Below the pieces are notes generated by a model. The model did not search any database. It was given only the letters and a program-made list of their open reading frames with translations, and was not told where the DNA came from. Position numbers and translations under genes: made by a program. Of a DNA stretch of 64,000 nucleotides, positions 18,050-56,664 are shown in pieces (positions within the stretch are counted from its first letter, which is position 1; each line of letters starts with the position of its first letter). Origin of the DNA: Trypanosoma brucei (lineage: Eukaryota); the NCBI GenBank assembly GCA_000002445.1, contig AE017150.2:960001-1024000 (forward strand), in the 5' to 3' direction.

Positions 18050-18073
18050 TAATAATAATAATAATAATAATAA
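18050..18073. repeat. (TAA)8 microsatellite. The mirrored copy at 56627-56662 is (TTA)12, an arm length polymorphism.
   Basis: The ORF-track poly-N runs have 9 versus 13 residues. This accounts for the 12 bp offset in outer-arm coordinate sums (74712 versus 74700). Confidence 0.85.
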
Positions 18074-31000: not shown

Positions 31001-34000
31001 ATGACGGTGGCGCGCCACCCATGAGCGTAACTCTAGTGTCGCCTTTGCTACTTGGTTTCAGCCACTGTGCCTCCGAGAAAAATTTTGGACATGGTTCTTG
31101 TCTCTGCTTACTACTTTGCCCTTCCTCCACACACAGCGCAGACGCCGCGTTGTGGGAATCCCCGCCACAAGCAGACACAGATGAGGACTGTGGTCCAGGG
31201 AACGGTTGCTTGTCAAATTTCACACCACAATGAACCCTCTTCTCAAGTCGTACTGATTCCTCCACGTCAACTACCAGTGAAAGCCCTTTGGGGTTATACA
31301 TAATATGTTTCGCAAGCGCTATGCGCTCAAGCAAGAATTGTTTTCTTTCCAATACAATTTGATCGTCAGTGGAACACCCAGCAACCTCCGCCTCCGCATT
31401 ATCGATCAACCGACTCACGCTTCCTACGGTACACGGTTGGTTGACAACGGAAGTGAACTTATGTTGGGCGCTCAGAAGCTGCAGAAGGTCTCTGTCCCTT
31501 TCACAGAGTGAGGAAACCACAACAGTGAAATAAGGACCACCCAACGCTTCATGGAATAGCTTTCGTGCACTTTGGTCACCTTCCCTCAGCAGCACATCAA
31601 GGTCGTTAGGGGTAGCACCACCCGTCACAAGCATCGACGACAAAATTACATCATTCACATCAATTTGTTTCAACATGACGGACAAAACTACACGACTTCC
31701 GACACAATTGTGCTTCAAATCGGCAACTTCGAGACCACGCGATAAAAGTGTGATGAAGTGATGTGCGCTCTTCAGTTTCATATGGGTGACGTTTTCAAAG
31801 GCAACCCAAGGAGCCATGACGGAGGAACTTAGAGTTCGCACCCCCCCTTCGGACTCAGAAAGCAAATCCCGTGCTGACTCCTGTCGTATTAGGACAACGG
31901 ACATAAACAACTCGCACTCATCATTGATGTCACGAAACACATGATTCATCACCTCAAAAACCGCACACCAGCCAGACAGTGGTACTGACTCACTTCCAGC
32001 AACAAACATGGCAACGTTCATGCCGCGGAGAAACTTTCCTTGAAGTTCCGCGAGTGTGACAGAGCACATATCATTGTCATCGGTGCATTCCAGGTATTCG
32101 TCCACGCTAAAGAAGTGTGGCAAGCCCTGTGGAGGACAGACTTCTAGCGTACTCTCTCCGCGGAGGTTTACTGCCGTCTGCACATCATTCTGTCCCGTTC
32201 CCGTTTTGTGGTTGAGTACAATCAAACGCACTCGGTTTGAAGGAACACTCTGTCGTTCCCTTGAAACCCTGATAATTGGTGACGACCCCCCCTCAACGAG
32301 ACACATCCCATCTTCAGCCACTTTAACCGTATGAGACCCAGACACTCCACCAGTACTAAGCTCGCTGCACGGATGCCATCTCTTTCGGGAAACAACTGCA
32401 GCCGGCGGGCGCACAAAGCTTTGAGATGCGGTAATGGACTCTGCACCCGCCACTAAACTGATCGATGACCCATTCATTCTCCCGGGGCCCTGAACTGCCT
32501 TTTCCCTGGAACGCTTCTGAATGGAAAGTTGCTCGCTTCCACCCATACATACCCCCTGTCCTACACCTTGATTCTTATCTAGACTACAACTGGCTGACCT
32601 GCATGTCGAACCTGGACGACTGTCGCCGCAACGAGCGATGCATGGGTTAATCGAACGAAGCTCCGTTCCGCATCGCAGATGCACACCCACAGAGCAGGAG
32701 ATATGAGACTGCAGATATTGCTCACACTCCCTTTCCATGCCCACAGACACCCCCTCGGCAGACAAAATAGCCCCCTCACCCTCTTCCGCAGTACAAATCG
32801 ACTGACGGGACGGCAAAGGTGAGCTTATAATCAAATTCGAGTCGCCTTTGAGGCCACTAAAGTACGGATACTCCATCCCCCCAATTAAACTATCCACCAA
32901 AGAGTTACATGATGGAGTTCCAACCCTGCCACGTGCGCGGTCAGTAAGAATGGCAGATATGGGAAGAGCTTTCGACGGCAAACTGAGTCCGGTACCTTCT
33001 TTGACGTCCCCTAACGGCCCTTCGGCGCCCACAAAGTCAGAGGCTGCAGAAGGACATGAAAACGTTTTTGGTAGTACGTCGCCGACCATGGTGAGCTCAA
33101 CGTTACCGGAAGCTTTTCCTTCCTCGGTACGCAGAGGCTGCGCGTTCACGACTCCGGTGGGAGCACCTATGATGTCCTCGCTGCACCTCTGATATACCGC
33201 TCCACTCGTCCCATTTGTCAGGGCACCAGTTCCTCGATCATCATGTCGAGGAAACAGCATCAGTTCATTGTTGGATCCACTGTCCCCACGGCGCATAACT
33301 CCCATGCATATCTCACTAGCTTTTTGCGTGTGCCCCTCACTGCAACTTCCACTCGAGAGAACACCGGGAATCCCGTTGTCTGTGCAAAGTAGCCCCAATA
33401 CCATATCCACATCATAAAGGGAACTCTCACTCACACCTAAGGTATCACAGCCCCTTGTAGTGCCCTGCGGAAGATTGCATTTTCCGTCAAAGGCCCGGAA
33501 AGACCACCTCAGCCACCTCTCCGATGTTCCGTTAGGAGATGTTTTGCCCTGCAGACTGTTGGCCTCTCGCAGCACACCTACGTCGTTTCGGAGGGGACTC
33601 TCACTTGCTACCGTCAAACTCGACTGCAGCCCACCAAACTGGGCGAGCCTATTCGATTGGCCATCTAGAACCCGTGGTGGAGAGGTCGTCACGGTCGATT
33701 GCAGGGGCCAGGGACCCAGCCGCATTCCGTGAATGAAGGCATCAAGCCCATAATCGTGGCTATTCAGGTCGGCATGTTCACTCTGGAAAGCGTACGAGCA
33801 GACATAGTCGAGATCATAATACGGATAGTTTTCCCCCTCCAATGTCGCCGCTAGGTCGCTGGGCCTCGTATCAACTGTCAGGGCAACGTTGTCAATGGTT
33901 GAGCGCCCCTGAGCAACGGACACGGGCCCGTCTCCATCTTTGGCATCAAGATATATGGAAGACCTCCTCCTCCCTAAGTCTCCGTCATCAAGGCCATCCG

Positions 34001-34193
34001 ATCCAGTAGCCCACTCTGCAGTATTACAAACAATACTTCCACGGTCATTGTTTCCCGTTACATGAACACCAGTAGGGGAATTCCAGCCGTCGCTGAAGGT
34101 GTCTACTACCTCTTGGTGTTGCATTACCGCCTCGGACGCAAGAATATGGGACTCCACATTAGAAAAGCTTATCGAACCCTCAACATCGGACAT
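28011..34193 (-). CDS. Pseudo-kinesin family protein, paralog 4 (about 2060 aa from MSDVEG, left-arm copy). It has a Cys/Ser-rich N-terminal region of about 640 aa and three degenerate kinesin-motor-like domains separated by long Ser/Pro/Cys-rich linkers.
   Basis: The ORF-track start is GTG. The first ATG at complement 34191-34193 lies just downstream of the polypyrimidine tract ttcactttcccccctcccccatcttc plus AG. LGG blocks KLFHEALGGPYFTVVVSSL, ALFHYALGGPCYTVALLSI and DLFKLALGGPCFTIVALGL. Switch-II-like VLVSSLAVSLAGEN. Motor C-terminal blocks VVNQPCTVGS, VVNRPIHRGS and VRNLPSHRTS. No GKT P-loop anywhere. C-terminal coiled-coil QEEESEEEKAQLRVRIVRARRF. Confidence 0.85.
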   Translation of the reverse strand: MSDVEGSISFSNVESHILASEAVMQHQEVVDTFSDGWNSPTGVHVTGNNDRGSIVCNTAEWATGSDGLDDGDLGRRRSSIYLDAKDGDGPVSVAQGRSTIDNVALTVDTRPSDLAATLEGENYPYYDLDYVCSYAFQSEHADLNSHDYGLDAFIHGMRLGPWPLQSTVTTSPPRVLDGQSNRLAQFGGLQSSLTVASESPLRNDVGVLREANSLQGKTSPNGTSERWLRWSFRAFDGKCNLPQGTTRGCDTLGVSESSLYDVDMVLGLLCTDNGIPGVLSSGSCSEGHTQKASEICMGVMRRGDSGSNNELMLFPRHDDRGTGALTNGTSGAVYQRCSEDIIGAPTGVVNAQPLRTEEGKASGNVELTMVGDVLPKTFSCPSAASDFVGAEGPLGDVKEGTGLSLPSKALPISAILTDRARGRVGTPSCNSLVDSLIGGMEYPYFSGLKGDSNLIISSPLPSRQSICTAEEGEGAILSAEGVSVGMERECEQYLQSHISCSVGVHLRCGTELRSINPCIARCGDSRPGSTCRSASCSLDKNQGVGQGVCMGGSEQLSIQKRSREKAVQGPGRMNGSSISLVAGAESITASQSFVRPPAAVVSRKRWHPCSELSTGGVSGSHTVKVAEDGMCLVEGGSSPIIRVSRERQSVPSNRVRLIVLNHKTGTGQNDVQTAVNLRGESTLEVCPPQGLPHFFSVDEYLECTDDNDMCSVTLAELQGKFLRGMNVAMFVAGSESVPLSGWCAVFEVMNHVFRDINDECELFMSVVLIRQESARDLLSESEGGVRTLSSSVMAPWVAFENVTHMKLKSAHHFITLLSRGLEVADLKHNCVGSRVVLSVMLKQIDVNDVILSSMLVTGGATPNDLDVLLREGDQSARKLFHEALGGPYFTVVVSSLCERDRDLLQLLSAQHKFTSVVNQPCTVGSVSRLIDNAEAEVAGCSTDDQIVLERKQFLLERIALAKHIMYNPKGLSLVVDVEESVRLEKRVHCGVKFDKQPFPGPQSSSVSACGGDSHNAASALCVEEGQSSKQRQEPCPKFFSEAQWLKPSSKGDTRVTLMGGAPPSSLPQRNHYGEGKTPSCLPCVTAAGMPTPRDPRLERQVRPSSRRLSIPVEPDQASYATTCSMSDPQRGEGLPSLGPLATTCGMELAPSTQRRAHRCFPSSASSDHTTCAYSQRLFSLTPARGASHDAEVSCKIDTPGVPDAEKVRTSTTPDAFSCPGISTKVKYDPGLSLPSLKAARGPPCSMTSCFPFDPILTGPPGVVEPVEHCGISQGPALCRQREQPQLPDASVACSGGSPTLTCKQVAHASQNSVHTDIKKKQISDGGSDSSARSAEGSEDDVLHSAMSAPSKVRTLVVVDQGCGHVIGAGNDDGGPFLRTGGSHEGYEVDEVVKWGDGCGDVPSKVLGELFDVFVLGCNAAILTAESGSSTVSSTVLRGLVRNVLSEVVDASGLQNSNRRGLLSLSIVKLSGERMLDLLDDSSEPERLVIAMSPIFGPCVHNARRFPVSSCSGFDSLLASALRRAKNAGVDDGLVFVSVVLKQKLKADGDVLVSSLAVSLAGENVDLYTSVLNRVSRAPRALFHYALGGPCYTVALLSIDVATTQTENMLRVQKCIGEVVNRPIHRGSIVKFISGIRDDLVPSLREKFQGSNKCEPSDNILYRLEEMVRDAELLLENFESNDPRAYLSDKETRSPKGCVSLLETKARTGDEGRVHSLLFFEQRLLSDGTAGVQGNSVFTRAGAITRRYGVDEVVLRGPDSDSNATLCSRLLDELVRKFMSGHCTAVLAADSHNSASTPLILRKIVYLILQSTKAGVGCGPVGGDLLLSMALVKNGVTVDLLAAEESEAVHRFGVEISPLFDRHVRGVSHRVVADTEAFDRFLVGAVEHVVPTLQAEDPGLMVVSLKLTHHVEEPVHDVFVSSLMVTTVFDHVSHYSDILSNRSSELTDLFKLALGGPCFTIVALGLCDEDDDAEALLSVQTKLSQVRNLPSHRTSALRRMDELTKTIQVLGVQLQEEESEEEKAQLRVRIVRARRFLLEVESLLKNPPREMGCVRAYKSVH

Positions 34194-34693
34194 GTACGCT
34201 TGAAGATGGGGGAGGGGGGAAAGTGAACCTTGATACCTCACCCGTCACAGTTGGCTTCCTACACCAGCTCCTTCCTATATGTAGCGTGGAATACCCTTCA
34301 GCAGAGAGTGCAAGGATGCAGTGAAGTGGCGTAAAGAAGTAAGCAACACAGAAATATGAAGACAGAAACGGACGTGGCTCCATAATATTGCTACCTGAAG
34401 TTGCCGAGCATTGCTGACTATTAAAAAAAAAAAAAAACAGCGCCAGCACACTCGTATTGCCTTTATGCAGGACAATGGAGCCACGTGCGAATAGTGGGTT
34501 GTGAATGCAATGAAAAAGACATATATGTTTATAAACCAACAAAGATACATGCGCTTCTTGGTGGACGCAGACAGTCTTGTCAGCCCTGCCCACTCCCAAA
34601 CTACACTTCTATATAGTGCGAAGAAGGCATAACGCATCCAACAATAATCTGGACGTGCACAGTGAGGAGAGGAAGTTCTTACAAGGAAAAATA

Positions 34694-34694
<1 letters not shown>

Positions 34695-34729
<35 letters not shown>
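34695..34729. repeat. (TA)17 microsatellite. The mirrored copy at 39978-40004 is (AT)13, an arm length polymorphism. The adjacent poly-C is 10 in the left arm versus 9 in the right.
   Basis: Counted directly. This accounts for the 9 bp offset between the arms (coordinate sums 74708 versus 74699). Confidence 0.85.
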
Positions 34730-34734
<5 letters not shown>

Positions 34735-36748
34735 CTACGCAAACAGTAGAATCATAACCCCCCCCCCGGTATTTTCCCCGCCGGGTGCCATCCACAACAA
34801 ACTAAAACCCGTTCTCACGGTAGAACGCCCGGATTCCGTTCCAGTAGTGATAATTCGAGTACTTGGTACAACATTTCTCTATCATGCCCTGATGACAAAT
34901 CAGTACAGCTCACCTAAGGAGAATAACAATAAATTCGTAGCTACTTTCTGAAGTGTAGTTTGGTAGACCGGGCCATGTTCCGCTCACAACATTCAGTGCC
35001 CAAATTTTCCATACATATGCAATTGGTCAGATGGTATATTGTCATCCAACTTTCTTGCGCCGTCGCGGGCAGCTGGATACCCCAGCAGACGGCAGTGTCT
35101 TTGTTGGAAACAATGTTATGTATGGGAAGGTGCGTACACACACAGGGTGGGGACCTTCATGGTTTTTTCCATGGCCCACTTCAATGCTACAAGTTAACCG
35201 ACCTGCTGTAGATGCAGTGGAAACCAACATACGTAAAAACTAATATGCCATGATAAATCCTTAGAGGAACACAACTGCTCAACGGTGTCATACGACCCCC
35301 ACACCTCCAGTAAACGTTTGAAATACTGATAAGTGCGTCCATGTATGGATCCACATCCCGAGACGCCGGCTGGCCGCCTTCAACAAGACACGGATTTCCA
35401 TTCAAGTACTAACACAGTAGCCAATACCGAGAGAAAATCCTCCACATAGTGTGCAACTAGAAACATCGGTTTCTCGCACCATGTTCGCATCGCAGCCGCC
35501 CCCCTCCAATCTCACCAAGAGGAAGTAGTGCATCACTGAGTCTGCCTTGTTGTACTTTCCACGCAGTCAAATAGTTATTACTCGCAGTTTCCTAGCGTTC
35601 AAACATAATCCAAGCTCCCCAATAGAAGGGTTGACGCTCGCACCCTGACAATCAGGTCAGTATGGCTAAGACAAATATGATGGTAACATAGAGCATATCG
35701 AATATAAATCATAGTATGATACTCACATTTCTACGCTGGGCAAACAGACGTTATTGAGACCCTTTTTTCTCACCAGAGGACGGGGATGAAAAGAAGAAAG
35801 CAAAGCACTCACTATTAACGCGGAAGGATATTGTGAAGGCGCACATATAGGTCTAAGATTGAGTTGTTTCGGATGCCTTCAAAGGGATTTGTGTCCAAAC
35901 AACTTCACATACACGGGATACGTATCCCATTCACGCACCTCCCAACCCCAACTTAGCGCACCCCAATGGGTTTACCACTCGGTGCATGCAACCTTTCGCC
36001 ATCTAAAAAATAAGTACTCGTTGTAGGTCATGGATCCTTGCTAAGCGCACCTCCTGAGGATATGCAACAACCTATCCATGGGTATACCACGGAACCGACG
36101 ACGTTAAAGATACGTAAACAAGGGAGAAAGATTATCTGAAGATTTCCTAACATGGTTTGAGTCGGTGACCAACAGCGTACATTCCCTTCCGTACCCCATC
36201 CCTAATAAAAACGTACACCCTTATCCCAGCCGTCCGCGATCACATCACTATTGCTATTTCTGTTTTTTAGAACTCTAAAACACATCAAGGGCCGTACTGA
36301 CAAACCTTCCGCACCCACCACCAAAACAGTGGCGAGGCCGCCGACCGCAGCAGTGGTAACCGGAAGAGGAAGGAAACAAACAATGGTGCGGTAGTAACCT
36401 GCTCTTCGAAATTCAGCAGTAGATGACAGATACTTGCTAGCTCTCTGCAAGTCCCACGCAGGATAGGCGTACGGCACAGTGCAACGTGTTACGGCTGCGC
36501 AGCAAGGTCAAGCACACGAAGTACCGGTTCGCTTCATCGTTGCATGACGCACGATCAGAAGATTCAATGGAATAATCGACACATAATATATTGGATCACC
36601 TAATTTTCTCTATACTGCCAATCCACCGTGGAAAACTGACGCACTTACAAAGGGTTAGAGGAAGTTCCACCGAAAAAAATATAGCATACTATGACCCGTG
36701 CTAAAAATCAGGGGCGGCTGCCACACCGTTATCGAACGCCCAGGCCGA

Positions 36749-36773
36749 ACACGCACGCACGCACGCACGCACG
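36749..36773. repeat. (ACGC)5-6 microsatellite near the centre, mirrored at 37935-37959
   Basis: acacgcacgcacgcacgcacgcacg. Confidence 0.8.
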
Positions 36774-36955
36774 TGACCGGCGCGGCAGAAACTTTGAGGC
36801 GCAGTAAATAAACCGACAGCGTCAGGCACCGACGGAAAGAGCACGTAAAACACCGCAAGTAGAATTTTACGTACCGGAAGGCTGTAAGTCACGCGAGAAC
36901 CGGGAAAGCAGCAGTACGCTCGGCCCGTATTAATCAAGTGTGCAGGCGACCTCTT

Positions 36956-36970
36956 GGGTTAGGGTTAGGG
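36956..36970 (+). repeat. Interstitial telomeric hexamers GGGTTAGGGTTAGGG (2.5 copies), with the G-strand pointing toward the palindrome centre
   Basis: Exact (TTAGGG) repeats. The mirrored ccctaaccctaaccc is at 37738-37752, so both copies point at the centre. Confidence 0.8.
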
Positions 36971-37286
36971 TCGGCCGCTTCAACCACCCACCGAAAATAC
37001 AACAAAAAAGGCAGAACTAGAAACAACAGCAGACCTCCACACGTGCGATGACACCCACAATAAAGGGCGACGTGGGCGGGGAAGGCGGTGGGGCTGAAGC
37101 GCGGAAGCGGCCGCACGAGGAGCCGTTCCTCGCCCTCCGCGTTTGGACGGACGGAAAGGGCACGGTTCCGCCGACGTCGCCCACACACAGCTATCCAGAC
37201 CCCTCTCACCCTCCAACAAGCGGGCGCAGGGCATCTAGACAACCAACCTCGTAGAACGAGGTGGGGAACCACATCCCCAACCCGGC

Positions 37287-37421
37287 CCAGCTGTCTAATT
37301 ATGCTATTAAAACCCAAAGTGCGGGAAGCGAGTCTCCGTACGCGAGTCCGATGGGTGCTTCTCGCAAGTTGAAAATGTTATGGTAACACGGCACCTCTGC
37401 CTTTACGTTTGGTTCCTTGGT
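37287..37421. other. 135 bp unique central spacer of the palindrome (symmetry centre about 37354)
   Basis: The arms end at ...ccccaacccggc (37286) and resume at gccgggttgggg... (37422). The sequence between has no inverted partner. Confidence 0.9.
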
Positions 37422-37737
37422 GCCGGGTTGGGGATGTGGTTCCCCACCTCGTTCTACGAGGTTGGTTGTCTAGATGCCCTGCGCCCGCTTGTTGGAGGGT
37501 GAGAGGGGTCTGGATAGCTGTGTGTGGGCGACGTCGGCGGAACCGTGCCCTTTCCGTCCGTCCAAACGCGGAGGGCGAGGAACGGCTCCTCGTGCGGCCG
37601 CTTCCGCGCTTCAGCCCCACCGCCTTCCCCGCCCACGTCGCCCTTTATTGTGGGTGTCATCGCACGTGTGGAGGTCTGCTGTTGTTTCTAGTTCTGCCTT
37701 TTTTGTTGTATTTTCGGTGGGTGGTTGAAGCGGCCGA

Positions 37738-37752
37738 CCCTAACCCTAACCC
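37738..37752 (-). repeat. Interstitial telomeric hexamers (mirror copy)
   Basis: ccctaaccctaaccc on the plus strand. Confidence 0.8.
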
Positions 37753-39972
37753 AAGAGGTCGCCTGCACACTTGATTAATACGGGCCGAGCGTACTGCTGC
37801 TTTCCCGGTTCTCGCGTGACTTACAGCCTTCCGGTACGTAAAATTCTACTTGCGGTGTTTTACGTGCTCTTTCCGTCGGTGCCTGACGCTGTCGGTTTAT
37901 TTACTGCGCCTCAAAGTTTCTGCCGCGCCGGTCACGTGCGTGCGTGCGTGCGTGCGTGTTCGGCCTGGGCGTTCGATAACGGTGTGGCAGCCGCCCCTGA
38001 TTTTTAGCACGGGTCATAGTATGCTATATTTTTTTCGGTGGAACTTCCTCTAACCCTTTGTAAGTGCGTCAGTTTTCCACGGTGGATTGGCAGTATAGAG
38101 AAAATTAGGTGATCCAATATATTATGTGTCGATTATTCCATTGAATCTTCTGATCGTGCGTCATGCAACGATGAAGCGAACCGGTACTTCGTGTGCTTGA
38201 CCTTGCTGCGCAGCCGTAACACGTTGCACTGTGCCGTACGCCTATCCTGCGTGGGACTTGCAGAGAGCTAGCAAGTATCTGTCATCTACTGCTGAATTTC
38301 GAAGAGCAGGTTACTACCGCACCATTGTTTGTTTCCTTCCTCTTCCGGTTACCACTGCTGCGGTCGGCGGCCTCGCCACTGTTTTGGTGGTGGGTGCGGA
38401 AGGTTTGTCAGTACGGCCCTTGATGTGTTTTAGAGTTCTAAAAAACAGAAATAGCAATAGTGATGTGATCGCGGACGGCTGGGATAAGGGTGTACGTTTT
38501 TATTAGGGATGGGGTACGGAAGGGAATGTACGCTGTTGGTCACCGACTCAAACCATGTTAGGAAATCTTCAGATAATCTTTCTCCCTTGTTTACGTATCT
38601 TTAACGTCGTCGGTTCCGTGGTATACCCATGGATAGGTTGTTGCATATCCTCAGGAGGTGCGCTTAGCAAGGATCCATGACCTACAACGAGTACTTATTT
38701 TTTAGATGGCGAAAGGTTGCATGCACCGAGTGGTAAACCCATTGGGGTGCGCTAAGTTGGGGTTGGGAGGTGCGTGAATGGGATACGTATCCCGTGTATG
38801 TGAAGTTGTTTGGACACAAATCCCTTTGAAGGCATCCGAAACAACTCAATCTTAGACCTATATGTGCGCCTTCACAATATCCTTCCGCGTTAATAGTGAG
38901 TGCTTTGCTTTCTTCTTTTCATCCCCGTCCTCTGGTGAGAAAAAAGGGTCTCAATAACGTCTGTTTGCCCAGCGTAGAAATGTGAGTATCATACTATGAT
39001 TTATATTCGATATGCTCTATGTTACCATCATATTTGTCTTAGCCATACTGACCTGATTGTCAGGGTGCGAGCGTCAACCCTTCTATTGGGGAGCTTGGAT
39101 TATGTTTGAACGCTAGGAAACTGCGAGTAATAACTATTTGACTGCGTGGAAAGTACAACAAGGCAGACTCAGTGATGCACTACTTCCTCTTGGTGAGATT
39201 GGAGGGGGGCGGCTGCGATGCGAACATGGTGCGAGAAACCGATGTTTCTAGTTGCACACTATGTGGAGGATTTTCTCTCGGTATTGGCTACTGTGTTAGT
39301 ACTTGAATGGAAATCCGTGTCTTGTTGAAGGCGGCCAGCCGGCGTCTCGGGATGTGGATCCATACATGGACGCACTTATCAGTATTTCAAACGTTTACTG
39401 GAGGTGTGGGGGTCGTATGACACCGTTGAGCAGTTGTGTTCCTCTAAGGATTTATCATGGCATATTAGTTTTTACGTATGTTGGTTTCCACTGCATCTAC
39501 AGCAGGTCGGTTAACTTGTAGCATTGAAGTGGGCCATGGAAAAAACCATGAAGGTCCCCACCCTGTGTGTGTACGCACCTTCCCATACATAACATTGTTT
39601 CCAACAAAGACACTGCCGTCTGCTGGGGTATCCAGCTGCCCGCGACGGCGCAAGAAAGTTGGATGACAATATACCATCTGACCAATTGCATATGTATGGA
39701 AAATTTGGGCACTGAATGTTGTGAGCGGAACATGGCCCGGTCTACCAAACTACACTTCAGAAAGTAGCTACGAATTTATTGTTATTCTCCTTAGGTGAGC
39801 TGTACTGATTTGTCATCAGGGCATGATAGAGAAATGTTGTACCAAGTACTCGAATTATCACTACTGGAACGGAATCCGGGCGTTCTACCGTGAGAACGGG
39901 TTTTAGTTTGTTGTGGATGGCACCCGGCGGGGAAAATACCGGGGGGGGGTTATGATTCTACTGTTTGCGTAG

Positions 39973-40004
<32 letters not shown>

Positions 40005-40261
40005 CTATTTTTCCTTGTAAGAACTTCCTCTCCTCACTGTGCACGTCCAGATTATTGTTGGATGCGTTATGCCTTCTTCGCACTATATAGAAGTGTAGTT
40101 TGGGAGTGGGCAGGGCTGACAAGACTGTCTGCGTCCACCAAGAAGCGCATGTATCTTTGTTGGTTTATAAACATATATGTCTTTTTCATTGCATTCACAA
40201 CCCACTATTCGCACGTGGCTCCATTGTCCTGCATAAAGGCAATACGAGTGTGCTGGCGCTG

Positions 40262-40282
40262 TTTTTTTTTTTTTTTAATAGT
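40262..40282 (+). promoter_or_regulatory. Candidate polypyrimidine tract (T15) plus first downstream AG, a trans-splice acceptor-type signal upstream of paralog 4 (right copy). A second tract is at 40474-40499. The mirror in the left arm is A15 at 34423-34437.
   Basis: gttttttttttttttttaatAGtcagc about 225 nt upstream of the ATG at 40506. A second tract, ttcactttcccccctcccccatcttcaAG, lies immediately upstream of the ATG. Confidence 0.5.
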
Positions 40283-40505
40283 CAGCAATGCTCGGCAACT
40301 TCAGGTAGCAATATTATGGAGCCACGTCCGTTTCTGTCTTCATATTTCTGTGTTGCTTACTTCTTTACGCCACTTCACTGCATCCTTGCACTCTCTGCTG
40401 AAGGGTATTCCACGCTACATATAGGAAGGAGCTGGTGTAGGAAGCCAACTGTGACGGGTGAGGTATCAAGGTTCACTTTCCCCCCTCCCCCATCTTCAAG
40501 CGTAC

Positions 40506-43500
40506 ATGTCCGATGTTGAGGGTTCGATAAGCTTTTCTAATGTGGAGTCCCATATTCTTGCGTCCGAGGCGGTAATGCAACACCAAGAGGTAGTAGACAC
40601 CTTCAGCGACGGCTGGAATTCCCCTACTGGTGTTCATGTAACGGGAAACAATGACCGTGGAAGTATTGTTTGTAATACTGCAGAGTGGGCTACTGGATCG
40701 GATGGCCTTGATGACGGAGACTTAGGGAGGAGGAGGTCTTCCATATATCTTGATGCCAAAGATGGAGACGGGCCCGTGTCCGTTGCTCAGGGGCGCTCAA
40801 CCATTGACAACGTTGCCCTGACAGTTGATACGAGGCCCAGCGACCTAGCGGCGACATTGGAGGGGGAAAACTATCCGTATTATGATCTCGACTATGTCTG
40901 CTCGTACGCTTTCCAGAGTGAACATGCCGACCTGAATAGCCACGATTATGGGCTTGATGCCTTCATTCACGGAATGCGGCTGGGTCCCTGGCCCCTGCAA
41001 TCGACCGTGACGACCTCTCCACCACGGGTTCTAGATGGCCAATCGAATAGGCTCGCCCAGTTTGGTGGGCTGCAGTCGAGTTTGACGGTAGCAAGTGAGA
41101 GTCCCCTCCGAAACGACGTAGGTGTGCTGCGAGAGGCCAACAGTCTGCAGGACAAAACATCTCCTAACGGAACATCGGAGAGGTGGCTGAGGTGGTCTTT
41201 CCGGGCCTTTGACGGAAAATGCAATCTTCCGCAGGGCACTACAAGGGGCTGTGATACCTTAGGTGTGAGTGAGAGTTCCCTTTATGATGTGGATATGGTA
41301 TTGGGGCTACTTTGCACAGACAACGGGATTCCCGGTGTTCTCTCGAGTGGAAGTTGCAGTGAGGGGCACACGCAAAAAGCTAGTGAGATATGCATGGGAG
41401 TTATGCGCCGTGGGGACAGTGGATCCAACAATGAACTGATGCTGTTTCCTCGACATGATGATCGAGGAACTGGTGCCCTGACAAATGGGACGAGTGGAGC
41501 GGTATATCCGAGGTGCAGCGAGGACATCATAGGTGCTCCCACCGGAGTCGTGAACGCGCAGCCTCTGCGTACCGAGGAAGGAAAAGCTTCCGGTAACGTT
41601 GAGCTCACCATGGTCGGCGACGTACTACCAAAAACGTTTTCATGTCCTTCTGCAGCCTCTGACTTTGTGGGCGCCGAAGGGCCGTTAGGGGACGTCAAAG
41701 AAGGTACCGGACTCAGTTTGCCGTCGAAAGCTCTTCCCATATCTGCCATTCTTACTGACCGCGCACGTGGCAGGGTTGGAACTCCATCATGTAACTCTTT
41801 GGTGGATAGTTTAATTGGGGGGATGGAGTATCCGTACTTTAGTGGCCTCAAAGGCGACTCGAATTTGATTATAAGCTCACCTTTGCCGTCCCGTCAGTCG
41901 ATTTGTACTGCGGAAGAGGGTGAGGGGGCTATTTTGTCTGCCGAGGGGGTGTCTGTGGGCATGGAAAGGGAGTGTGAGCAATATCTGCAGTCTCATATCT
42001 CCTGCTCTGTGGGTGTGCATCTGCGATGCGGAACGGAGCTTCGTTCGATTAACCCATGCATCGCTCGTTGCGGCGACAGTCGTCCAGGTTCGACATGCAG
42101 GCCAGCCAGTTGTAGTCTAGATAAGAATCAAGGTGTAGGACAGGGGGTATGTATGGGTGGAAGCGAGCAACTTTCCATTCAGAAGCGTTCCAGGGAAAAG
42201 GCAGTTCAGGGCCCCGGGAGAATGAATGGGTCATCGATCAGTTTAGTGGCGGGTGCAGAGTCCATTACCGCATCTCAAAGCTTTGTGCGCCCGCCGGCTG
42301 CAGTTGTTTCCCGAAAGAGATGGCATCCGTGCAGCGAGCTTAGTACTGGTGGAGTGTCTGGGTCTCATACGGTTAAAGTGGCTGAAGATGGGATGTGTCT
42401 CGTTGAGGGGGGGTCGTCACCAATTATCAGGGTTTCAAGGGAACGACAGAGTGTTCCTTCAAACCGAGTGCGTTTGATTGTACTCAACCACAAAACGGGA
42501 ACGGGACAGAATGATGTGCAGACGGCAGTAAACCTCCGCGGAGAGAGTACGCTAGAAGTCTGTCCTCCACAGGGCTTGCCACACTTCTTTAGCGTGGACG
42601 AATACCTGGAATGCACCGATGACAATGATATGTGCTCTGTCACACTCGCGGAACTTCAAGGAAAGTTTCTCCGCGGCATGAACGTTGCCATGTTTGTTGC
42701 TGGAAGTGAGTCAGTACCACTGTCTGGCTGGTGTGCGGTTTTTGAGGTGATGAATCATGTGTTTCGTGACATCAATGATGAGTGCGAGTTGTTTATGTCC
42801 GTTGTCCTAATACGACAGGAGTCAGCACGGGATTTGCTTTCTGAGTCCGAAGGGGGGGTGCGAACTCTAAGTTCCTCCGTCATGGCTCCTTGGGTTGCCT
42901 TTGAAAACGTCACCCATATGAAACTGAAGAGCGCACATCACTTCATCACACTTTTATCGCGTGGTCTCGAAGTTGCCGATTTGAAGCACAATTGTGTCGG
43001 AAGTCGTGTAGTTTTGTCCGTCATGTTGAAACAAATTGATGTGAATGATGTAATTTTGTCGTCGATGCTTGTGACGGGTGGTGCTACCCCTAACGACCTT
43101 GATGTGCTACTGAGGGAAGGTGACCAAAGTGCACGAAAGCTATTCCATGAAGCGTTGGGTGGTCCTTATTTCACTGTTGTGGTTTCCTCACTCTGTGAAA
43201 GGGACAGAGACCTTCTGCAGCTTCTGAGCGCCCAACATAAGTTCACTTCCGTTGTCAACCAACCGTGTACCGTAGGAAGCGTGAGTCGGTTGATCGATAA
43301 TGCGGAGGCGGAGGTTGCTGGGTGTTCCACTGACGATCAAATTGTATTGGAAAGAAAACAATTCTTGCTTGAGCGCATAGCGCTTGCGAAACATATTATG
43401 TATAACCCCAAAGGGCTTTCACTGGTAGTTGACGTGGAGGAATCAGTACGACTTGAGAAGAGGGTTCATTGTGGTGTGAAATTTGACAAGCAACCGTTCC

Positions 43501-46500
43501 CTGGACCACAGTCCTCATCTGTGTCTGCTTGTGGCGGGGATTCCCACAACGCGGCGTCTGCGCTGTGTGTGGAGGAAGGGCAAAGTAGTAAGCAGAGACA
43601 AGAACCATGTCCAAAATTTTTCTCGGAGGCACAGTGGCTGAAACCAAGTAGCAAAGGCGACACTAGAGTTACGCTCATGGGTGGCGCGCCACCGTCATCG
43701 CTGCCACAACGCAATCATTATGGGGAGGGGAAAACACCCTCGTGCTTGCCCTGTGTTACCGCAGCAGGCATGCCCACTCCCCGAGATCCCCGACTGGAGC
43801 GCCAGGTGAGGCCATCCAGCAGAAGACTCAGCATTCCAGTGGAGCCGGATCAAGCTAGTTACGCAACGACTTGCAGTATGTCGGACCCCCAAAGGGGGGA
43901 GGGTTTGCCCTCCCTGGGCCCTTTGGCAACCACATGTGGAATGGAATTGGCGCCATCTACGCAGCGTAGAGCCCACCGTTGTTTTCCTTCCTCAGCTTCC
44001 TCCGACCACACGACATGTGCATACTCACAGCGGCTGTTCTCGCTAACCCCCGCTCGGGGGGCCTCGCATGATGCTGAGGTCTCCTGTAAGATTGACACAC
44101 CCGGTGTTCCTGATGCAGAAAAAGTTAGAACTTCTACCACGCCCGATGCTTTTTCATGCCCAGGTATAAGCACAAAGGTGAAATACGACCCTGGCCTTTC
44201 TCTCCCATCCTTGAAGGCAGCACGGGGACCACCGTGTTCCATGACATCTTGCTTCCCATTCGACCCAATCCTTACGGGACCCCCCGGTGTTGTGGAGCCC
44301 GTGGAGCACTGCGGAATCTCGCAGGGCCCAGCACTCTGCAGACAGAGGGAACAGCCACAACTGCCCGATGCCTCGGTTGCATGCTCTGGGGGCTCCCCAA
44401 CCCTCACTTGCAAGCAAGTGGCTCATGCGAGCCAAAACAGCGTGCACACCGACATCAAGAAGAAGCAAATTTCTGACGGCGGTAGTGACAGCAGCGCACG
44501 GAGCGCAGAAGGCAGCGAGGATGATGTGCTGCACAGTGCCATGTCTGCACCTTCTAAGGTGAGAACGCTTGTTGTGGTCGACCAGGGTTGTGGACACGTG
44601 ATTGGTGCCGGGAACGATGACGGTGGGCCTTTCCTAAGAACTGGCGGCTCTCATGAGGGATACGAGGTTGACGAGGTGGTGAAATGGGGCGATGGTTGCG
44701 GTGACGTGCCTTCGAAGGTGTTGGGTGAGCTGTTTGATGTTTTTGTTTTGGGTTGCAACGCTGCTATCCTTACTGCAGAGAGTGGTTCCTCAACCGTGTC
44801 ATCAACTGTGCTTAGGGGTCTCGTACGGAATGTGCTTTCAGAGGTTGTTGATGCTTCGGGCCTCCAGAATTCCAACCGTAGAGGATTGCTCAGCTTATCG
44901 ATTGTGAAATTGAGCGGAGAGCGCATGCTTGATCTGCTGGATGATAGCAGCGAGCCGGAGAGGTTGGTCATAGCTATGTCGCCGATCTTCGGCCCGTGTG
45001 TTCACAACGCCCGCCGGTTTCCTGTTAGCAGCTGCAGCGGGTTCGACTCGCTACTGGCATCAGCCCTTCGTCGCGCCAAGAACGCAGGGGTCGATGATGG
45101 GTTGGTGTTCGTCTCAGTTGTACTAAAGCAGAAGCTGAAAGCGGATGGGGATGTCCTTGTCTCATCTCTCGCAGTCAGTTTGGCAGGGGAAAACGTTGAC
45201 CTCTACACATCCGTGCTGAACCGTGTCTCGCGCGCACCGCGTGCGCTATTTCACTACGCATTGGGTGGACCGTGTTATACTGTAGCGTTGCTTAGTATTG
45301 ATGTCGCAACGACTCAGACCGAAAATATGCTGCGCGTGCAGAAGTGTATTGGAGAGGTGGTGAACCGGCCGATACACCGCGGAAGCATCGTGAAGTTTAT
45401 TAGCGGAATCCGGGATGATCTCGTGCCTAGTCTTCGTGAAAAGTTTCAAGGGTCGAATAAATGTGAGCCGTCAGATAATATATTGTACCGGCTCGAGGAA
45501 ATGGTGCGAGACGCAGAATTGCTTTTGGAGAATTTCGAGTCGAATGACCCCCGCGCATATCTTAGTGACAAAGAGACAAGGTCGCCTAAGGGGTGCGTGT
45601 CGCTCCTAGAGACCAAAGCCAGAACCGGGGACGAGGGGAGGGTTCATTCACTTTTATTCTTCGAGCAACGACTCCTTAGTGATGGTACCGCTGGTGTGCA
45701 AGGTAACTCCGTATTTACCCGAGCAGGGGCGATTACCCGCCGCTATGGCGTCGACGAGGTGGTGTTGCGTGGGCCCGACAGCGACAGTAATGCTACTCTG
45801 TGTTCACGTCTTCTTGATGAGCTCGTTCGGAAGTTTATGTCGGGGCATTGCACTGCTGTTCTTGCCGCAGATAGCCACAACTCCGCTTCCACACCGCTTA
45901 TCCTCCGCAAGATAGTGTACCTTATCCTGCAGAGTACGAAAGCAGGGGTGGGTTGCGGGCCGGTGGGTGGCGACTTGCTCCTCTCAATGGCGCTCGTTAA
46001 GAACGGTGTTACGGTGGATCTATTGGCAGCTGAAGAATCCGAGGCGGTTCACCGCTTCGGGGTGGAAATATCACCACTCTTCGACCGCCACGTACGGGGA
46101 GTGTCGCATCGCGTTGTCGCCGACACTGAGGCTTTTGACCGTTTTTTAGTTGGGGCTGTCGAGCACGTCGTACCCACCCTACAAGCCGAGGATCCCGGCC
46201 TGATGGTTGTTTCCTTAAAGTTAACACACCATGTGGAAGAACCTGTACACGACGTGTTTGTTTCCTCGCTCATGGTGACCACCGTATTCGATCACGTTTC
46301 CCACTACAGCGACATTTTGTCAAACCGCTCTAGTGAGCTCACGGACCTTTTCAAGCTCGCGTTGGGGGGGCCATGTTTCACTATCGTCGCGCTTGGATTG
46401 TGTGACGAAGATGATGATGCGGAAGCCTTGCTTTCCGTGCAAACTAAGCTTTCCCAGGTGCGAAACCTGCCGTCTCATCGCACGAGTGCTCTACGGCGCA

Positions 46501-46688: not shown

Positions 46689-48401
46689 GGCTGGTGTGCC
46701 TCCATTCTGACGTTTATTACTCCAAGCCTCATCTACTTGTCACTTTGTGTGCTAGCATGAAGGTACTTGTGCACTACTGCCGAACGCTCGCACCCCTATG
46801 GGTCCGGTTGAGCTGTGGAAGTGGGTACACACTTCTAGTATGTTGGGTTTCCCCACCTTAACACTACCTCTGGTTGCGTTGCCCATTCGGTGGCTCGGAT
46901 ACGCCAAAATTTGTGTGTGCGTCGTTATATAAATGTCATACACACGCGCGTATATATATATATATATATGTACCCCATAAGTGTTCCCTTCTCCCTGCTG
47001 GTGCACGCTGCTGCTACCAAGATACCGCTTGTTTACTTCGATAAATTTGCTTCTCCCACGTGCCGTTGAAGGGCGGTAAGGGTGAAAAGCGATACCTTTG
47101 TCTCGCTGCCGCGGGGGAGCTAGGGCGGGACTTCGCTTTACCTCTTTCTGAGGGTTTCTGTAAGCCGATCTCTCTTCCGCAGAGAGTGGTAAGTATAATG
47201 TGTGTGTGTGTGTTTAGTGTATTCCCTTCCTGCGCATCGTCTTAAGTGCTTAGTACATTTTTTAGTTTTTTTTCGTGTTGCCGTAAATTTATCTCTTTCT
47301 TTCATCGCCTTTGTTATCTGCAATGCGTCCGCATTTGGGAAAAGGTAGGAAGGAGTGTTCCCTTCGTGAACGTAGTGAGTGGTTGGAAATAAAGTGAGCC
47401 GTGTGTGCTGACCGTCACGCGCGTTTTTTTTTTGTGTGTGTGTGTGTGTTTATTTCAATTTTGCTGTGTTTTTGCGGTTATTCGATGGGAACCCACCCTT
47501 CCCCCCTCCCCTAGAGTTTTTTACACGTGTTGGGCGGAAGGTCATAGTAGCGACCCGAGGAAGTACCGACACAGCCTCTTTTTATTTTTTATATACCATT
47601 TACTTACGTGTTCTCCCCCTTTGTACCACTGCTACTGTTTTGGGGTCGCGCTCCGTTGACGCGGAGTCACTTACATCGATGAATAGCATGTGTGCCCATT
47701 GTATTTTTTTCCAGGTATCCTCTGCTTACTACTAATAATAATGAATGCACCGCGGAAACTAAATAGCGATCGCTTCATACGACTTGTTGTTGCGGTGACT
47801 AGGGCGCCCTTCCCAAGGGCAGCACGGAAGGTTTTGTCGGGATAACATCATGTCTTCATTCTTTCATTCCTTTTACTCTTGCACACCGATAACGTAGCAA
47901 GTCGCGAATAGGATCGGCAGCTTCACTGAGAAGGTCTTTGCAATGCACTGAGCAAAACCCCTGTGAGGGCACGCCGCTGAAACTGGTAATTATATTTCAG
48001 AGTGAGAAGATTCAACTGCCGAATCCACGGCTGCACAAGTCTCCGTATTGCATCTCGGTAAAATCTGAGCTGGCGCGGAGAATTCTGTGTGGGCTTGGGG
48101 AGCAGTTACATAGCATCTTTGGACGGGAATAATACCCCTTGTACCCAAGAAGGGATCCTGTCGGATGTGCTCCGACTTACTTTGTAGTCACGCACACACA
48201 CATGCTCGGCAATCTTCCTCATCTGTGTTGTCAGCACGGTTCCCAGACCTCTACGATACTTGTTTTTACCGTCGACGGCGTGGCGCCATGCCTCGGAGGT
48301 TACACGTTTCATGCGAGTCACATACGTTCTTGGGTTTGTCCCACTTTCCAACTTGGTGTAAGACGTTCCGTGGTCAGCCCGGCCTAGTTAGTTGTTCAAA
48401 C

Positions 48402-48460
48402 GCCTCTGTTTCCCTCCCCCTCTCCTATTTCTACGTTTCTCAAAAGCTGTCTTTGGTTTC
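48402..48460 (+). promoter_or_regulatory. Candidate polypyrimidine tract plus AG acceptor cluster upstream of paralog 3 (right copy). The mirror is at about 26240-26298 on the minus strand.
   Basis: cctctgtttccctccccctctcctatttctacgtttctcaaaAGctgtctttggtttcAG, followed by the ATG at 48515. Confidence 0.5.
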
Positions 48461-48514
48461 AGAAAGAGGAGCGAAAGCAAGGGAAGTCAAGCAAGTAAGT
48501 TTTGTAACCGTAAA

Positions 48515-56622: not shown

Positions 56623-56664
<42 letters not shown>

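What the first reader, a model, noticed from the sequence alone, without database searches (positions are those of the whole stretch)
36600..38110. The palindrome centre behaves as a divergent strand-switch region with GT-rich sense strands, head-to-head interstitial telomeric hexamers and (ACGC)n tracts
All genes left of the centre are on the minus strand and all genes right of it are on the plus strand, so transcription must initiate around the centre in both directions. The sense strand of each diverging arm is conspicuously GT-rich for about 700 bp. That is the sequence bias reported for transcription start regions of African trypanosomes, which lack conventional RNA polymerase II promoters. 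About 385 bp from the centre on each arm there is a GGGTTAGGGTTAGGG run whose G-strand polarity points toward the centre on both arms. This is the orientation a telomere would have if the centre had once been a chromosome end. A (GCAC)n tract lies a further 200 bp out. The combination suggests either an ancestral telomere-proximal locus fused head-to-head, or a start region carrying telomere-like protein-binding sites.
Basis: partly seen in the sequence, partly recalled or inferred. Interest (0 to 1): 0.7.

Follow-up and report, generated by a model that had tools for sequence, protein, structure and literature searches.

The report
Known trypanosome palindrome-centre transcription start region
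The flagged 1.5 kb is the centre of a real 47-kb palindrome on Trypanosoma brucei chromosome 2 where two gene clusters are transcribed outward; it is already catalogued as a divergent start region and as a small-RNA-producing inverted repeat, and its short telomere-like run is real but shows no sign of marking an old chromosome end.

Summary
The window is T. brucei brucei TREU927 chromosome 2, positions 960,001-1,024,000. The arms are 23.5 kb and 99.85% identical, around a unique 128-nt spacer (37290-37417). GGGTTAGGGTTAGGG lies at 36956-36970 and 37738-37752. (CACG)6 lies at 36750-36773 and 37935-37958. The outward-reading strands are 59.5% G+T, against 53.7 +/- 3.0% along the arm.

The palindrome is real. 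Its centre recurs in three other Trypanozoon assemblies, and the arms are homogenised within each strain.

The divergent start-region reading is supported but not new. Kolev 2010 lists Tb927.2.5540->5410 (-) and Tb927.2.5600->5660 (+) as divergent Pol II units. It also maps transcripts absent from its splice-site table, one of them starting about 740 nt from the axis. Seventeen of Wedel 2017's start-region 10-mers lie on the sense strand before the first gene and none on the antisense strand; they include the (GTGC)n tract. Tschudi 2012 published the palindrome as Tb927_02_IR2, a source of AGO1-bound small RNAs.

The telomere-fusion idea is not supported. The two hexamer runs are one feature mirrored, 767 nt apart, with sharp edges, on the antisense strand. 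The asymmetric spacer points to a fold-back duplication. Interest is low.

The parts
13757..37289 (-). Left arm of the palindrome. Genes Tb927.2.5480 (764 aa), .5500 (214 aa), .5530 POMP22-1 and .5540 (2060 aa, kinesin-like), all on the minus strand.
   Evidence: 99.85% identical to the right arm; for gene names and IDs.
37290..37417 (.). Unique, non-palindromic 128-nt spacer at the centre (chr2 997,290-997,417). No tRNA or Rfam match.
   Evidence: Present in the T. equiperdum OVI, T. b. equiperdum IVM-t1 and T. b. gambiense assemblies.
37418..60955 (+). Right arm of the palindrome. Genes Tb927.2.5600, .5610 POMP22B, .5630 and .5650, all on the plus strand. It is followed at 60956 by unique sequence and adenylate kinase Tb927.2.5660.
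36956..36970 (+). Short interstitial telomeric run GGGTTAGGGTTAGGG (2.5 repeats). The G-strand points to the centre and lies on the antisense strand of the leftward unit.
   Evidence: Conserved in the IVM-t1 assembly.
37738..37752 (-). Mirror copy of the telomeric run (CCCTAACCCTAACCC on the plus strand).
   Evidence: Conserved in the IVM-t1 and gambiense assemblies.
36750..36773 (-). (CACG)6 on the plus strand, which reads as (GTGC)n on the leftward sense strand.
   Evidence: Its mirror copy on the right arm matches Wedel Dataset EV1 10-mers GTGCGTGCGT and TGCGTGCGTG; the same follows here by symmetry.
37935..37958 (+). (GTGC)n on the rightward sense strand. It holds 8 overlapping hits to start-region coding-strand 10-mers.
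37418..38417 (+). Densest block of published start-region coding-strand 10-mers in the right half of the window: 13 sense, 0 antisense. Includes TGTGTGTGGG at 37519 and GGTGGGTGGT at 37716. The mirror block is 36291-37289 on the minus strand.
37048..37289 (.). GC-rich (65.7%) innermost part of the arm. Carries a G-run motif GGGCGACGTGGGCGGGGAAGGCGGTGGGG at 37065-37093 on the inward-reading strand. The mirror of the GC-rich stretch is 37418-37660, and the motif mirror is 37615-37643 on the minus strand.
34413..36614 (-). Published novel transcript Tb2.NT.59 (chr2 996,614->994,413). It is not in the spliced-leader site table and starts about 740 nt from the axis.
   Evidence: Kolev 2010 supplementary files 23 and 28.
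38940..40296 (+). Published novel transcript Tb2.NT.60 (chr2 998,940-1,000,296), upstream of the first spliced-leader acceptor of Tb927.2.5600 at window 40404.
28011..34193 (-). First gene of the leftward unit, Tb927.2.5540 (2060 aa, weak kinesin motor match).
40506..46688 (+). First gene of the rightward unit, Tb927.2.5600 (2060 aa). It differs from the left copy at 4 nt and 3 aa.

Best explanation
The region 36600-38110 is the core of a divergent strand-switch region. It is a dispersed, bidirectional RNA polymerase II start region of the usual T. brucei kind. It happens to sit at the centre of a real 47-kb palindrome on chromosome 2, published as Tb927_02_IR2.

Shown: the two flanking gene clusters diverge from here. 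The outward-reading strand of each arm carries the GT-rich, strand-biased 10-mers that mark the 5' ends of T. brucei start regions, including the (GTGC)n tract. Published RNA maps place outward transcripts that are absent from the splice-site table near the centre, one starting about 740 nt from the axis. They place the first trans-splice site 3.05 kb from it.

Inferred: GT-rich elements on each sense strand favour H2A.Z-type open chromatin and outward initiation. Weaker inward initiation from either mirror-image promoter reads through the 128-nt spacer into the other arm and gives a fold-back RNA. That would explain the AGO1-bound small RNAs reported for this repeat.

The palindrome most likely arose by a fold-back or template-switch inverted duplication and is kept nearly identical by arm-to-arm gene conversion. 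The 2.5-repeat TTAGGG run is a short interstitial telomeric sequence carried as a passenger and mirrored by the duplication.
For: - Identity and position: the proteins are 100% T. b. brucei TREU927 chromosome 2. Window position + 960,000 gives the Tb927_02_v4 coordinate, fixed by five published splice sites.
- Divergent orientation, with a cumulative GC-skew minimum at about 37 kb.
- Kolev 2010 Table S14 lists Tb927.2.5540->5410 (-) and Tb927.2.5600->5660 (+) as 'Divergent' Pol II units. The paper states that 5'-triphosphate reads were enriched at every divergent unit.
- Novel transcripts NT.59 and NT.60 run outward and are absent from the splice-site table.
- GT bias: 59.5% against 53.7 +/- 3.0%. 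GT-rich 10-mers are 58:8. Wedel Dataset EV1 10-mers are 13:0 in the first kb, the densest bin of the right half, and 17:0 over 3.1 kb at 8 independent sites. GTGCGTGCGT is itself 9:0 in region 1 of the published start regions.
- No tRNA or Rfam RNA could explain the switch.
- The palindrome is real. An IVM-t1 contig runs across the centre. The OVI contig starts with 35 nt of one arm, then the spacer, then the other arm. The gambiense assembly holds the spacer and the outer junction.
- Arms are homogenised. TREU927 and IVM-t1 differ by 13-15 substitutions in the inner 2.2 kb, and apart from alignment noise in the last ~10 nt next to the spacer each difference is shared by both arms of a strain.
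- Tschudi 2012 Table 3 lists Tb927_02_IR2 with 8,681 AGO1-bound small-RNA reads.
Against: - No ChIP or nascent-RNA signal could be examined here. The published tables name the units but give no start-site coordinates for this locus.
- Reads in the arms map to both copies, so arm-specific activity is unknown.
- GT enrichment is only about 2 sd above the arm average, and some 100-nt bins are near 0.51.
- Stable transcripts begin outside the flagged core, so initiation may occur mostly at or beyond its edges rather than at the axis.
- The fold-back RNA route to the small RNAs is inferred, not shown. Tschudi's printed coordinates for IR2 ('994300/100060', repeat length 10,011) are inconsistent with the 23.5-kb arms measured here.
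Confidence: 0.88

Rival explanations
1. Telomere-fusion relic. The centre was once a chromosome end, or two sister ends, and the head-to-head TTAGGG runs are what remains of the fused telomeres.
For: The 15-nt run is very unlikely by chance. Its G-strand points to the centre on both arms.
Against: - The mirrored orientation follows automatically from the palindrome, with a 50% prior.
- There are only 2.5 repeats, with sharp edges and no degenerate repeats nearby.
- 319 nt of non-telomeric sequence separates each run from the spacer, and the runs are 767 nt apart. Fusion ITSs are abutting head-to-head blocks.
- A unique asymmetric 128-nt spacer sits at the axis.
- The T. vivax contigs that carry the orthologous genes hold no run of two or more exact TTAGGG repeats within about 10 kb, and the genes lie among other genes.
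Confidence: 0.03
2. The TTAGGG run is a functional protein-binding or base-J site within the start region. It could be a TbTRF dimer site or a J-nucleation site that acts as a boundary or insulator between the two promoters.
For: - The run is non-random and unchanged in three or four Trypanozoon assemblies, while nearby bases vary.
- TbTRF binds duplex TTAGGG through its Myb domain.
- From my own knowledge: base J is found in telomeric repeats and at the flanks of Pol II units in T. brucei.
Against: - Conservation among subspecies that are about 99% identical is weak evidence.
- 2.5 repeats is at most one dimer site.
- No paper reporting TRF or J at interstitial sites of T. brucei strand-switch regions was found.
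- The run is not among the published start-region-enriched 10-mers.
Confidence: 0.1
3. Assembly artefact. The palindrome is a false fold-back join, so the 'centre' does not exist in the genome.
For: Near-perfect inverted repeats with a short spacer are a classic chimeric-read artefact. The gambiense assembly shows only one arm and a 100-N gap.
Against: - The centre recurs in three other assemblies made with different methods.
- The arms differ by 12 substitutions, 10 of them transitions, and by microsatellite lengths.
- The gambiense assembly holds both the spacer and the outer arm/ADK junction.
- Both copies of each gene are annotated and were quantified together in RNA-seq.
- Tschudi 2012 lists the repeat. 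Their PCR checks were on IR3 and IR4, not IR2.
Confidence: 0.02
4. The flagged 1.5-kb core is mainly a silent gap between two separate start regions that lie further out in the arms. On this reading its features are not themselves promoter elements.
For: The one published novel transcript whose 5' end lies nearest the core, NT.59, starts at its outer edge (36614; the mirror position is 38094). Wedel describes start regions as broad, with initiation spread over kilobases. The GT bias continues for 3.1 kb.
Against: The density of start-region 10-mers is highest in the first kb next to the spacer. In the published data such 10-mers are most enriched in the 5'-most fifth of start regions.
Confidence: 0.2

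Closest known systems
T. brucei divergent strand-switch regions / dispersed GT-rich Pol II start regions (Siegel 2009; Kolev 2010, PMC2936537; Wedel 2017, PMC5579346)
   Same: Divergent gene clusters, a GC/AT-skew switch, no focused promoter, strand-biased GT-rich 10-mers on the coding strand, and outward transcripts absent from the published splice-site table near the switch. This very locus is in Kolev's list of divergent units.
   Different: The two halves are exact mirror copies because the switch lies at the axis of a 47-kb palindrome. The two promoters are therefore the same sequence, and inward transcripts can fold back.
Long inverted repeats of T. brucei that yield AGO1-bound small RNAs (Tschudi 2012, PMC3447711; Tb927_02_IR2)
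   Same: It is the same locus. The midpoint of the published interval lies within 100 bp of the axis measured here. Identity is given as about 99% with 14 mismatches, against 12 mismatches plus indels here.
   Different: The paper gives a repeat length of 10,011 bp, while the arms measured here are 23.5 kb. In the text I could read, it does not connect the repeat with a divergent start region or mention the telomeric run.
Short interstitial telomeric sequences (s-ITS) of vertebrates (review PMC6410037)
   Same: A few exact TTAGGG units at a chromosome-internal site with sharp boundaries.
   Different: Here the run is in a kinetoplastid, lies inside a Pol II start region, and is duplicated in mirror image by a palindrome. 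An origin by telomerase at a break is only conjecture.
Fusion ITS (e.g. human 2q13-q14)
   Same: Head-to-head polarity of the G-strands.
   Different: Fusion ITSs are abutting, often degenerate, arrays at the fusion point. Here two 15-nt runs are 767 nt apart, with unrelated sequence and a unique spacer between them.
Fold-back inverted duplications and large palindromes kept alike by arm-to-arm gene conversion (PMC3907307, PMC10622511; human Y-chromosome palindromes, from my own knowledge)
   Same: Two long inverted arms, a short unique spacer, and arm-to-arm identity (99.95% counting substitutions only) far above between-strain identity (about 98.3-99.2%).
   Different: This one is interstitial, with both flanks retained. 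No microhomology is visible at the outer junction, and no pre-duplication allele is available to show the short inverted repeat that would have primed it.

Membership tests
T. brucei divergent strand-switch / Pol II start region | Two gene clusters transcribed away from each other, with no genes between them | tested here: met
   All genes left of 37354 are on the minus strand and all to the right are on the plus strand. The 6.3 kb between the first ATGs (34193 and 40506) has no ORF longer than 155 aa.
T. brucei divergent strand-switch / Pol II start region | Strand-compositional switch (G over C and T over A on the coding strand) | tested here: met
   The cumulative GC skew reaches its minimum at 36-38 kb, and the AT skew changes sign there.
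T. brucei divergent strand-switch / Pol II start region | GT-rich, strand-biased 10-mers on the coding strand, densest at the 5' end (Wedel 2017) | tested here: met
   EV1 10-mers are 13 sense and 0 antisense in the first kb, and 17:0 over 3.1 kb. G+T is 59.5% against 53.7 +/- 3.0%.
T. brucei divergent strand-switch / Pol II start region | 5'-triphosphate RNA, H2A.Z/H2B.V, H4K10ac and Pol II enrichment | not testable with these tools
   Read-level data are not available here. Kolev 2010 lists both units as 'Divergent' and reports enrichment at every divergent unit.
T. brucei divergent strand-switch / Pol II start region | The switch is not explained by a tRNA, snRNA or rRNA gene | tested here: met
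   ARAGORN found 0 genes. Rfam found 0 matches at gathering score over the window and 0 at E<=1 in 36000-38700.
Telomere-fusion site (fusion ITS) | Head-to-head telomeric arrays that abut at the fusion point | tested here: not met
   The runs are 767 nt apart. Each is separated from a unique 128-nt spacer by 319 nt of non-telomeric sequence.
Telomere-fusion site (fusion ITS) | Degenerate telomere-like repeats flanking the exact run | tested here: not met
   No other 18-nt window within 36800-37289 matches (TTAGGG)n at 14 or more of 18 positions.
Telomere-fusion site (fusion ITS) | The orthologous region is terminal in relatives | tested here: inconclusive
   T. vivax contigs with the orthologous genes show no run of two or more exact TTAGGG repeats and have genes on both sides, but synteny is rearranged and the contigs are partial.
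Fold-back (hairpin-primed or template-switch) inverted duplication | Long inverted arms joined through a short unique spacer | tested here: met
   23.5-kb arms and a 128-nt spacer.
Fold-back (hairpin-primed or template-switch) inverted duplication | A short inverted repeat or microhomology at the turnaround in the pre-duplication sequence | not testable with these tools
   No unduplicated allele was found. All four Trypanozoon assemblies carry the spacer flanked by arm sequence.
Fold-back (hairpin-primed or template-switch) inverted duplication | Microhomology at the second (outer) junction | tested here: not met
   The bases just outside the arms differ at 13756 and 60956, and no shared bases are visible at the outer junction.
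siRNA-producing long inverted repeat (Tschudi 2012) | A long near-identical inverted repeat with AGO1-bound 22-25-nt RNAs | tested here: met
   The repeat was measured here. Small RNAs are reported for Tb927_02_IR2, with 8,681 reads. The small-RNA data themselves were not re-examined.

The most novel reading that the evidence does not exclude
The inverted duplication itself created this divergent start region. A one-directional upstream region of the kinesin-like gene was mirrored by a fold-back event, giving birth to a bidirectional promoter and a second, short gene cluster. The 2.5 TTAGGG repeats would be the scar of telomerase acting on the break that started the event.

Weak support: in T. 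vivax contigs the ortholog of the kinesin-like gene lies 494 nt downstream of adenylate kinase on the same strand, not at a strand switch.
Probability: 0.1. Interest if true: 0.55.

Novelty: already known. Interest (0 to 1): 0.22.

Why it matters
Taken at face value, the finding would have suggested a new class of start region built on a fused telomere. The evidence shows something more ordinary: a catalogued divergent start region at the axis of a palindrome that has already been published as a small-RNA source.

Three things remain useful.

- The locus is a natural case of two sequence-identical promoters placed head-to-head. The unique 128-nt spacer and a dozen arm-specific SNPs could be used to ask whether identical promoter DNA behaves identically.
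- It offers a simple explanation for the small RNAs from Tb927_02_IR2: inward initiation followed by fold-back of the RNA.
- The short telomeric run is a defined, testable candidate site for TbTRF or base J inside a start region.

Tried and rejected
- tRNA, snRNA or other structured RNA at the centre: none found.
- Assembly artefact: rejected by three other assemblies and by the pattern of differences between the arms.
- Decayed telomere array: no degenerate repeats around the exact run.
- Intramolecular G-quadruplex from the hexamer run: it has only three G-runs. The nearest four-run motif is at 37065-37093 and lies on the inward-reading strand.
- (CACG)n as a chance microsatellite: the arm holds roughly a dozen other simple repeats. 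This one, however, matches two published start-region 10-mers in the sense orientation, so I kept it as part of the GT-rich signal.
- Copies of the core elsewhere in the window: none apart from the mirror copy.
- Dating the duplication with outgroups: only T. vivax loci could be fetched, and synteny there is rearranged. T. congolense had no contig on record.
- El-Sayed 2003 (the chromosome II paper) could not be read, so I cannot say whether it already described the palindrome.
- ORC/origin data from Tiengwe 2012: the supplements held nothing for this position.
- Wedel 2017 supplements: these hold no start-region coordinates.
- The 164 nt next to the gap in the gambiense assembly match nothing in the window. 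The match to TREU927 decays gradually just before them, which looks like a low-quality contig end. I left this unresolved.

Full report
**What the window is.** A 764-aa ORF is 100% identical to a hypothetical protein of Trypanosoma brucei brucei TREU927 on a 1,193,948-bp record, the size of chromosome 2. Exact look-ups of nine proteins gave consecutive NCBI accessions XP_951709 to XP_951719. Five published spliced-leader sites fix the position: window coordinate + 960,000 = Tb927_02_v4 coordinate. For example, Tb927.2.5600 has its splice site at 1,000,404 and a 102-nt 5' UTR, which puts its ATG at window 40506.

The genes, from left to right:
- Tb927.2.5410, an ABC transporter
- a 962-aa protein
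- Tb927.2.5480 (764 aa)
- Tb927.2.5500 (214 aa)
- Tb927.2.5530, POMP22-1
- Tb927.2.5540 (2060 aa, weak kinesin-motor match)
- the centre
- Tb927.2.5600, .5610 (POMP22B), .5630 and .5650
- Tb927.2.5660, adenylate kinase

These assignments rest.

**Checking the observation.** The window holds a giant palindrome. Its arms are 13757-37289 and 37418-60955, with 23,547 aligned columns at 99.851% identity. There are 12 substitutions, 10 of them transitions, and 5 indels, mostly in (AAT)n, (CA)n, (TA)n and C-run tracts, with the fifth a single base at the spacer boundary. A unique 128-nt spacer occupies 37290-37417.

Every large ORF left of the centre is on the minus strand and every one to the right is on the plus strand. 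The 6.3 kb between the first ATGs has no ORF above 155 aa.

GGGTTAGGGTTAGGG is at 36956-36970 (+) and 37738-37752 (-). Even with 2 mismatches allowed these are the only matches in 64 kb, against 0.09 expected from shuffles. (CACG)6 is at 36750-36773, with its mirror at 37935-37958.

The first 693 nt of each outward-reading strand is 59.5% G+T. For 693-nt windows along the arm and flank the mean is 53.7% (sd 3.0), so this falls in the top 2.8%. The bias is uneven, with 100-nt bins from 0.51 to 0.68, and it continues at about 0.56 up to the first gene.

Two qualifications apply. 'Conspicuously GT-rich' overstates a shift of about 2 sd. Each mirrored pair is one feature counted twice, so 'both G-strands point to the centre' carried a 50% prior.

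**Is the palindrome real?** Yes.
- A T. b. equiperdum IVM-t1 contig runs without a break from 2.2 kb of one arm, through the spacer, into 5.4 kb of the other (L002).
- A T. equiperdum OVI contig begins with 35 nt of one arm, then the spacer, then the other arm at 99.96% identity. That is where a short-read assembler is expected to stop (L006).
- The T. b. gambiense DAL972 assembly shows one arm and a 100-N gap. It still holds the spacer with about 28 nt of the opposite arm, and also the outer junction between the arm end and the adenylate kinase flank. This is a collapsed palindrome (L003).

In the inner 2.2 kb, TREU927 and IVM-t1 differ at 13-15 positions. Apart from alignment noise in the last ~10 nt next to the spacer, each difference is shared by both arms within a strain, while the arms of one strain differ only by that boundary noise. 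The duplication therefore predates the split of these lineages, and the arms are kept alike by gene conversion. One caveat is that read mis-assignment in the long-read assembly could add to this pattern.

**What the centre does.** Three published data sets bear on it.
- Kolev et al. 2010, Table S14, lists Tb927.2.5540->Tb927.2.5410 (-) and Tb927.2.5600->Tb927.2.5660 (+) as 'Divergent' putative Pol II transcription units. The text says that 5'-triphosphate-end reads were enriched at every divergent unit.
- The same paper's list of novel transcripts has Tb2.NT.59 at 996,614->994,413 (-), which is window 36614->34413. It has Tb2.NT.60 at 998,940-1,000,296 (+), which is window 38940-40296. Neither appears in the splice-site table.
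- Wedel et al. [quoted passage not shown] They also showed that synthetic GT-rich elements drive directional transcription and H2A.Z deposition.

I scanned the window with the 157 10-mers of Wedel's Dataset EV1. The first kb next to the spacer has 13 hits on the sense strand and none on the antisense strand, the densest bin in the right half of the window. The whole 3.1 kb upstream of the first gene has 17:0, at 8 independent sites. On the sense strand that tract reads (GTGC)n and matches GTGCGTGCGT (9:0 in region 1) and TGCGTGCGTG (9:1).

No tRNA or Rfam family is present. The divergent start-region reading is thus well supported, and it was already on record.

Tschudi et al. 2012 surveyed the genome for long inverted repeats and list this one as Tb927_02_IR2. 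The coordinates are printed as '994300/100060', with repeat length 10,011 bp, 99% identity, 14 mismatches and 8,681 AGO1-bound small-RNA reads. Reads fell to 56% without DCL1 and to 24% without DCL2. The midpoint of 994,300-1,000,600 is 997,450, and the axis measured here is at 997,353.5. The arms I measured are 23.5 kb, so the printed length understates the repeat.

The authors noted that spacers of such repeats also yield small RNAs, which implies transcription of both strands. Kolev 2010 reported that initiation at start regions is bidirectional, with weaker antisense transcription. On that basis I infer that inward transcripts from either mirror-image promoter cross the 128-nt spacer and fold back on the opposite arm, giving Dicer substrates. 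This step is inference.

**The telomere idea.** The run is a genuine short interstitial telomeric sequence, but nothing supports a former chromosome end.
- It has sharp edges and no degenerate repeats near it.
- 319 nt of unrelated, partly GC-rich sequence (65.7% GC over 37048-37289) separates it from the spacer.
- The two runs are 767 nt apart. Fusion ITSs are abutting head-to-head blocks.
- Its G-rich strand is the antisense strand of each arm, so it does not contribute to the GT-rich sense signal.
- It is not among the published start-region 10-mers.

A unique, asymmetric spacer at the axis is what a fold-back (hairpin-primed or template-switch) inverted duplication leaves. Such events are described in PMC3907307 and PMC10622511; I saw only their titles and abstracts. 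The outer junction (60955|60956) shows no microhomology, and no unduplicated allele was available, so the mechanism stays inferred.

Whether the run binds TbTRF, which recognises duplex TTAGGG, or carries base J is untested. Three literature searches found nothing on such sites in T. brucei strand-switch regions.

**Outgroups.** Only T. vivax could be fetched. There the adenylate kinase ortholog lies inside a plus-strand cluster. Two contigs share about 6 kb around it and then diverge. One continues into the 764-aa and 214-aa orthologs on the opposite strand. The other continues into the kinesin-like and POMP22 orthologs on the same strand, the first starting 494 nt after adenylate kinase. No run of two or more exact TTAGGG repeats is present in these loci.

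The region is therefore rearrangement-prone in both species, and the kinesin-like gene is not at a strand switch in that T. vivax contig. This leaves open, weakly, that the T. brucei strand switch was created by the duplication.

**Verdict.** The locus is already known both as a divergent Pol II unit boundary and as a small-RNA-producing inverted repeat. The only detail I could not find in print is the 2.5-repeat telomeric run. Interest is low.

Noticed in passing
window 35067-37289 and 37418-39641; L002 1-4590: Concerted evolution of the arms. TREU927 and IVM-t1 differ at 13-15 positions in the inner 2.2 kb. Apart from alignment noise next to the spacer, each difference is shared by both arms within a strain, so the arms are homogenised, presumably by gene conversion.
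   Followed up: partly
window 37290-37417; L002 2228-2355: In the IVM-t1 record the 128-nt spacer is in the opposite orientation to TREU927 when both are read from the ABC-transporter side to the adenylate kinase side. This could be real flip-flop inversion or an arbitrary assembler choice, because no read spans a 23.5-kb arm.
   Followed up: partly
L003 6510-6781 (T. b. gambiense FN554965.1): The gambiense assembly collapses the palindrome to one arm with a 100-N gap. 164 nt next to the gap match nothing in the window, and the match to TREU927 decays gradually just before them, as at a low-quality contig end.
   Followed up: partly
window 8688-11576, 14913-17207, 21617-26185, 28011-34193 and their mirror copies: The 962-aa, 764-aa, POMP22 (1522 aa) and 2060-aa proteins share a domain of about 330 aa at 21-28% identity, repeated about three times in the two larger proteins. 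Pfam sees it only as a weak kinesin-motor match. The palindrome thus duplicates a cluster of paralogs.
   Followed up: partly
L007, L008, L009 (T. vivax GCA_021307395.1): Two contigs share about 6 kb around the adenylate kinase ortholog (98.8% identity) and then diverge into opposite ends of the orthologous gene block. One continues into <-764aa <-214aa, the other into kinesin-like-> POMP22->. This is consistent with an inverted duplication of the adenylate kinase segment flanking the block in T. vivax, or with assembly problems.
   Followed up: partly
window 25131-25699 and 49001-49569: Inside POMP22 there is a complex array of 18-, 30-, 48-, 60-, 78- and 96-nt tandem repeats. It gives the secondary 80-94% repeat matches seen when the arms are compared, and it differs in length between strains.
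   Followed up: no
L002 7778-7877 (T. b. equiperdum CM010673.1): A 100-N gap is flanked by redundant sequence. Window-equivalent 31848-34071 appears on both sides of it, which splits the kinesin-like gene into four annotated fragments.
   Followed up: no
window 8688-11576: The published splice site for Tb927.2.5440 (chr2 971,458, window 11458) lies inside the 962-aa ORF. The T. equiperdum orthologs are annotated as 880 aa. The real start codon is probably an internal ATG.
   Followed up: no
window 28011-34193 vs 40506-46688; 14913-17207 vs 57505-59799: Seven of the 12 arm-to-arm substitutions are in coding sequence and 4 change an amino acid: G216D, Q335P and S533P in the 2060-aa protein, and K5Q in the 764-aa protein.
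   Followed up: yes
window 37065-37093 (+) and 37615-37643 (-): The motif GGGCGACGTGGGCGGGGAAGGCGGTGGGG, a four-G-run quadruplex-type motif with loops up to 8 nt, lies on the inward-reading strand of each arm, inside the 65.7% GC stretch next to the spacer.
   Followed up: no
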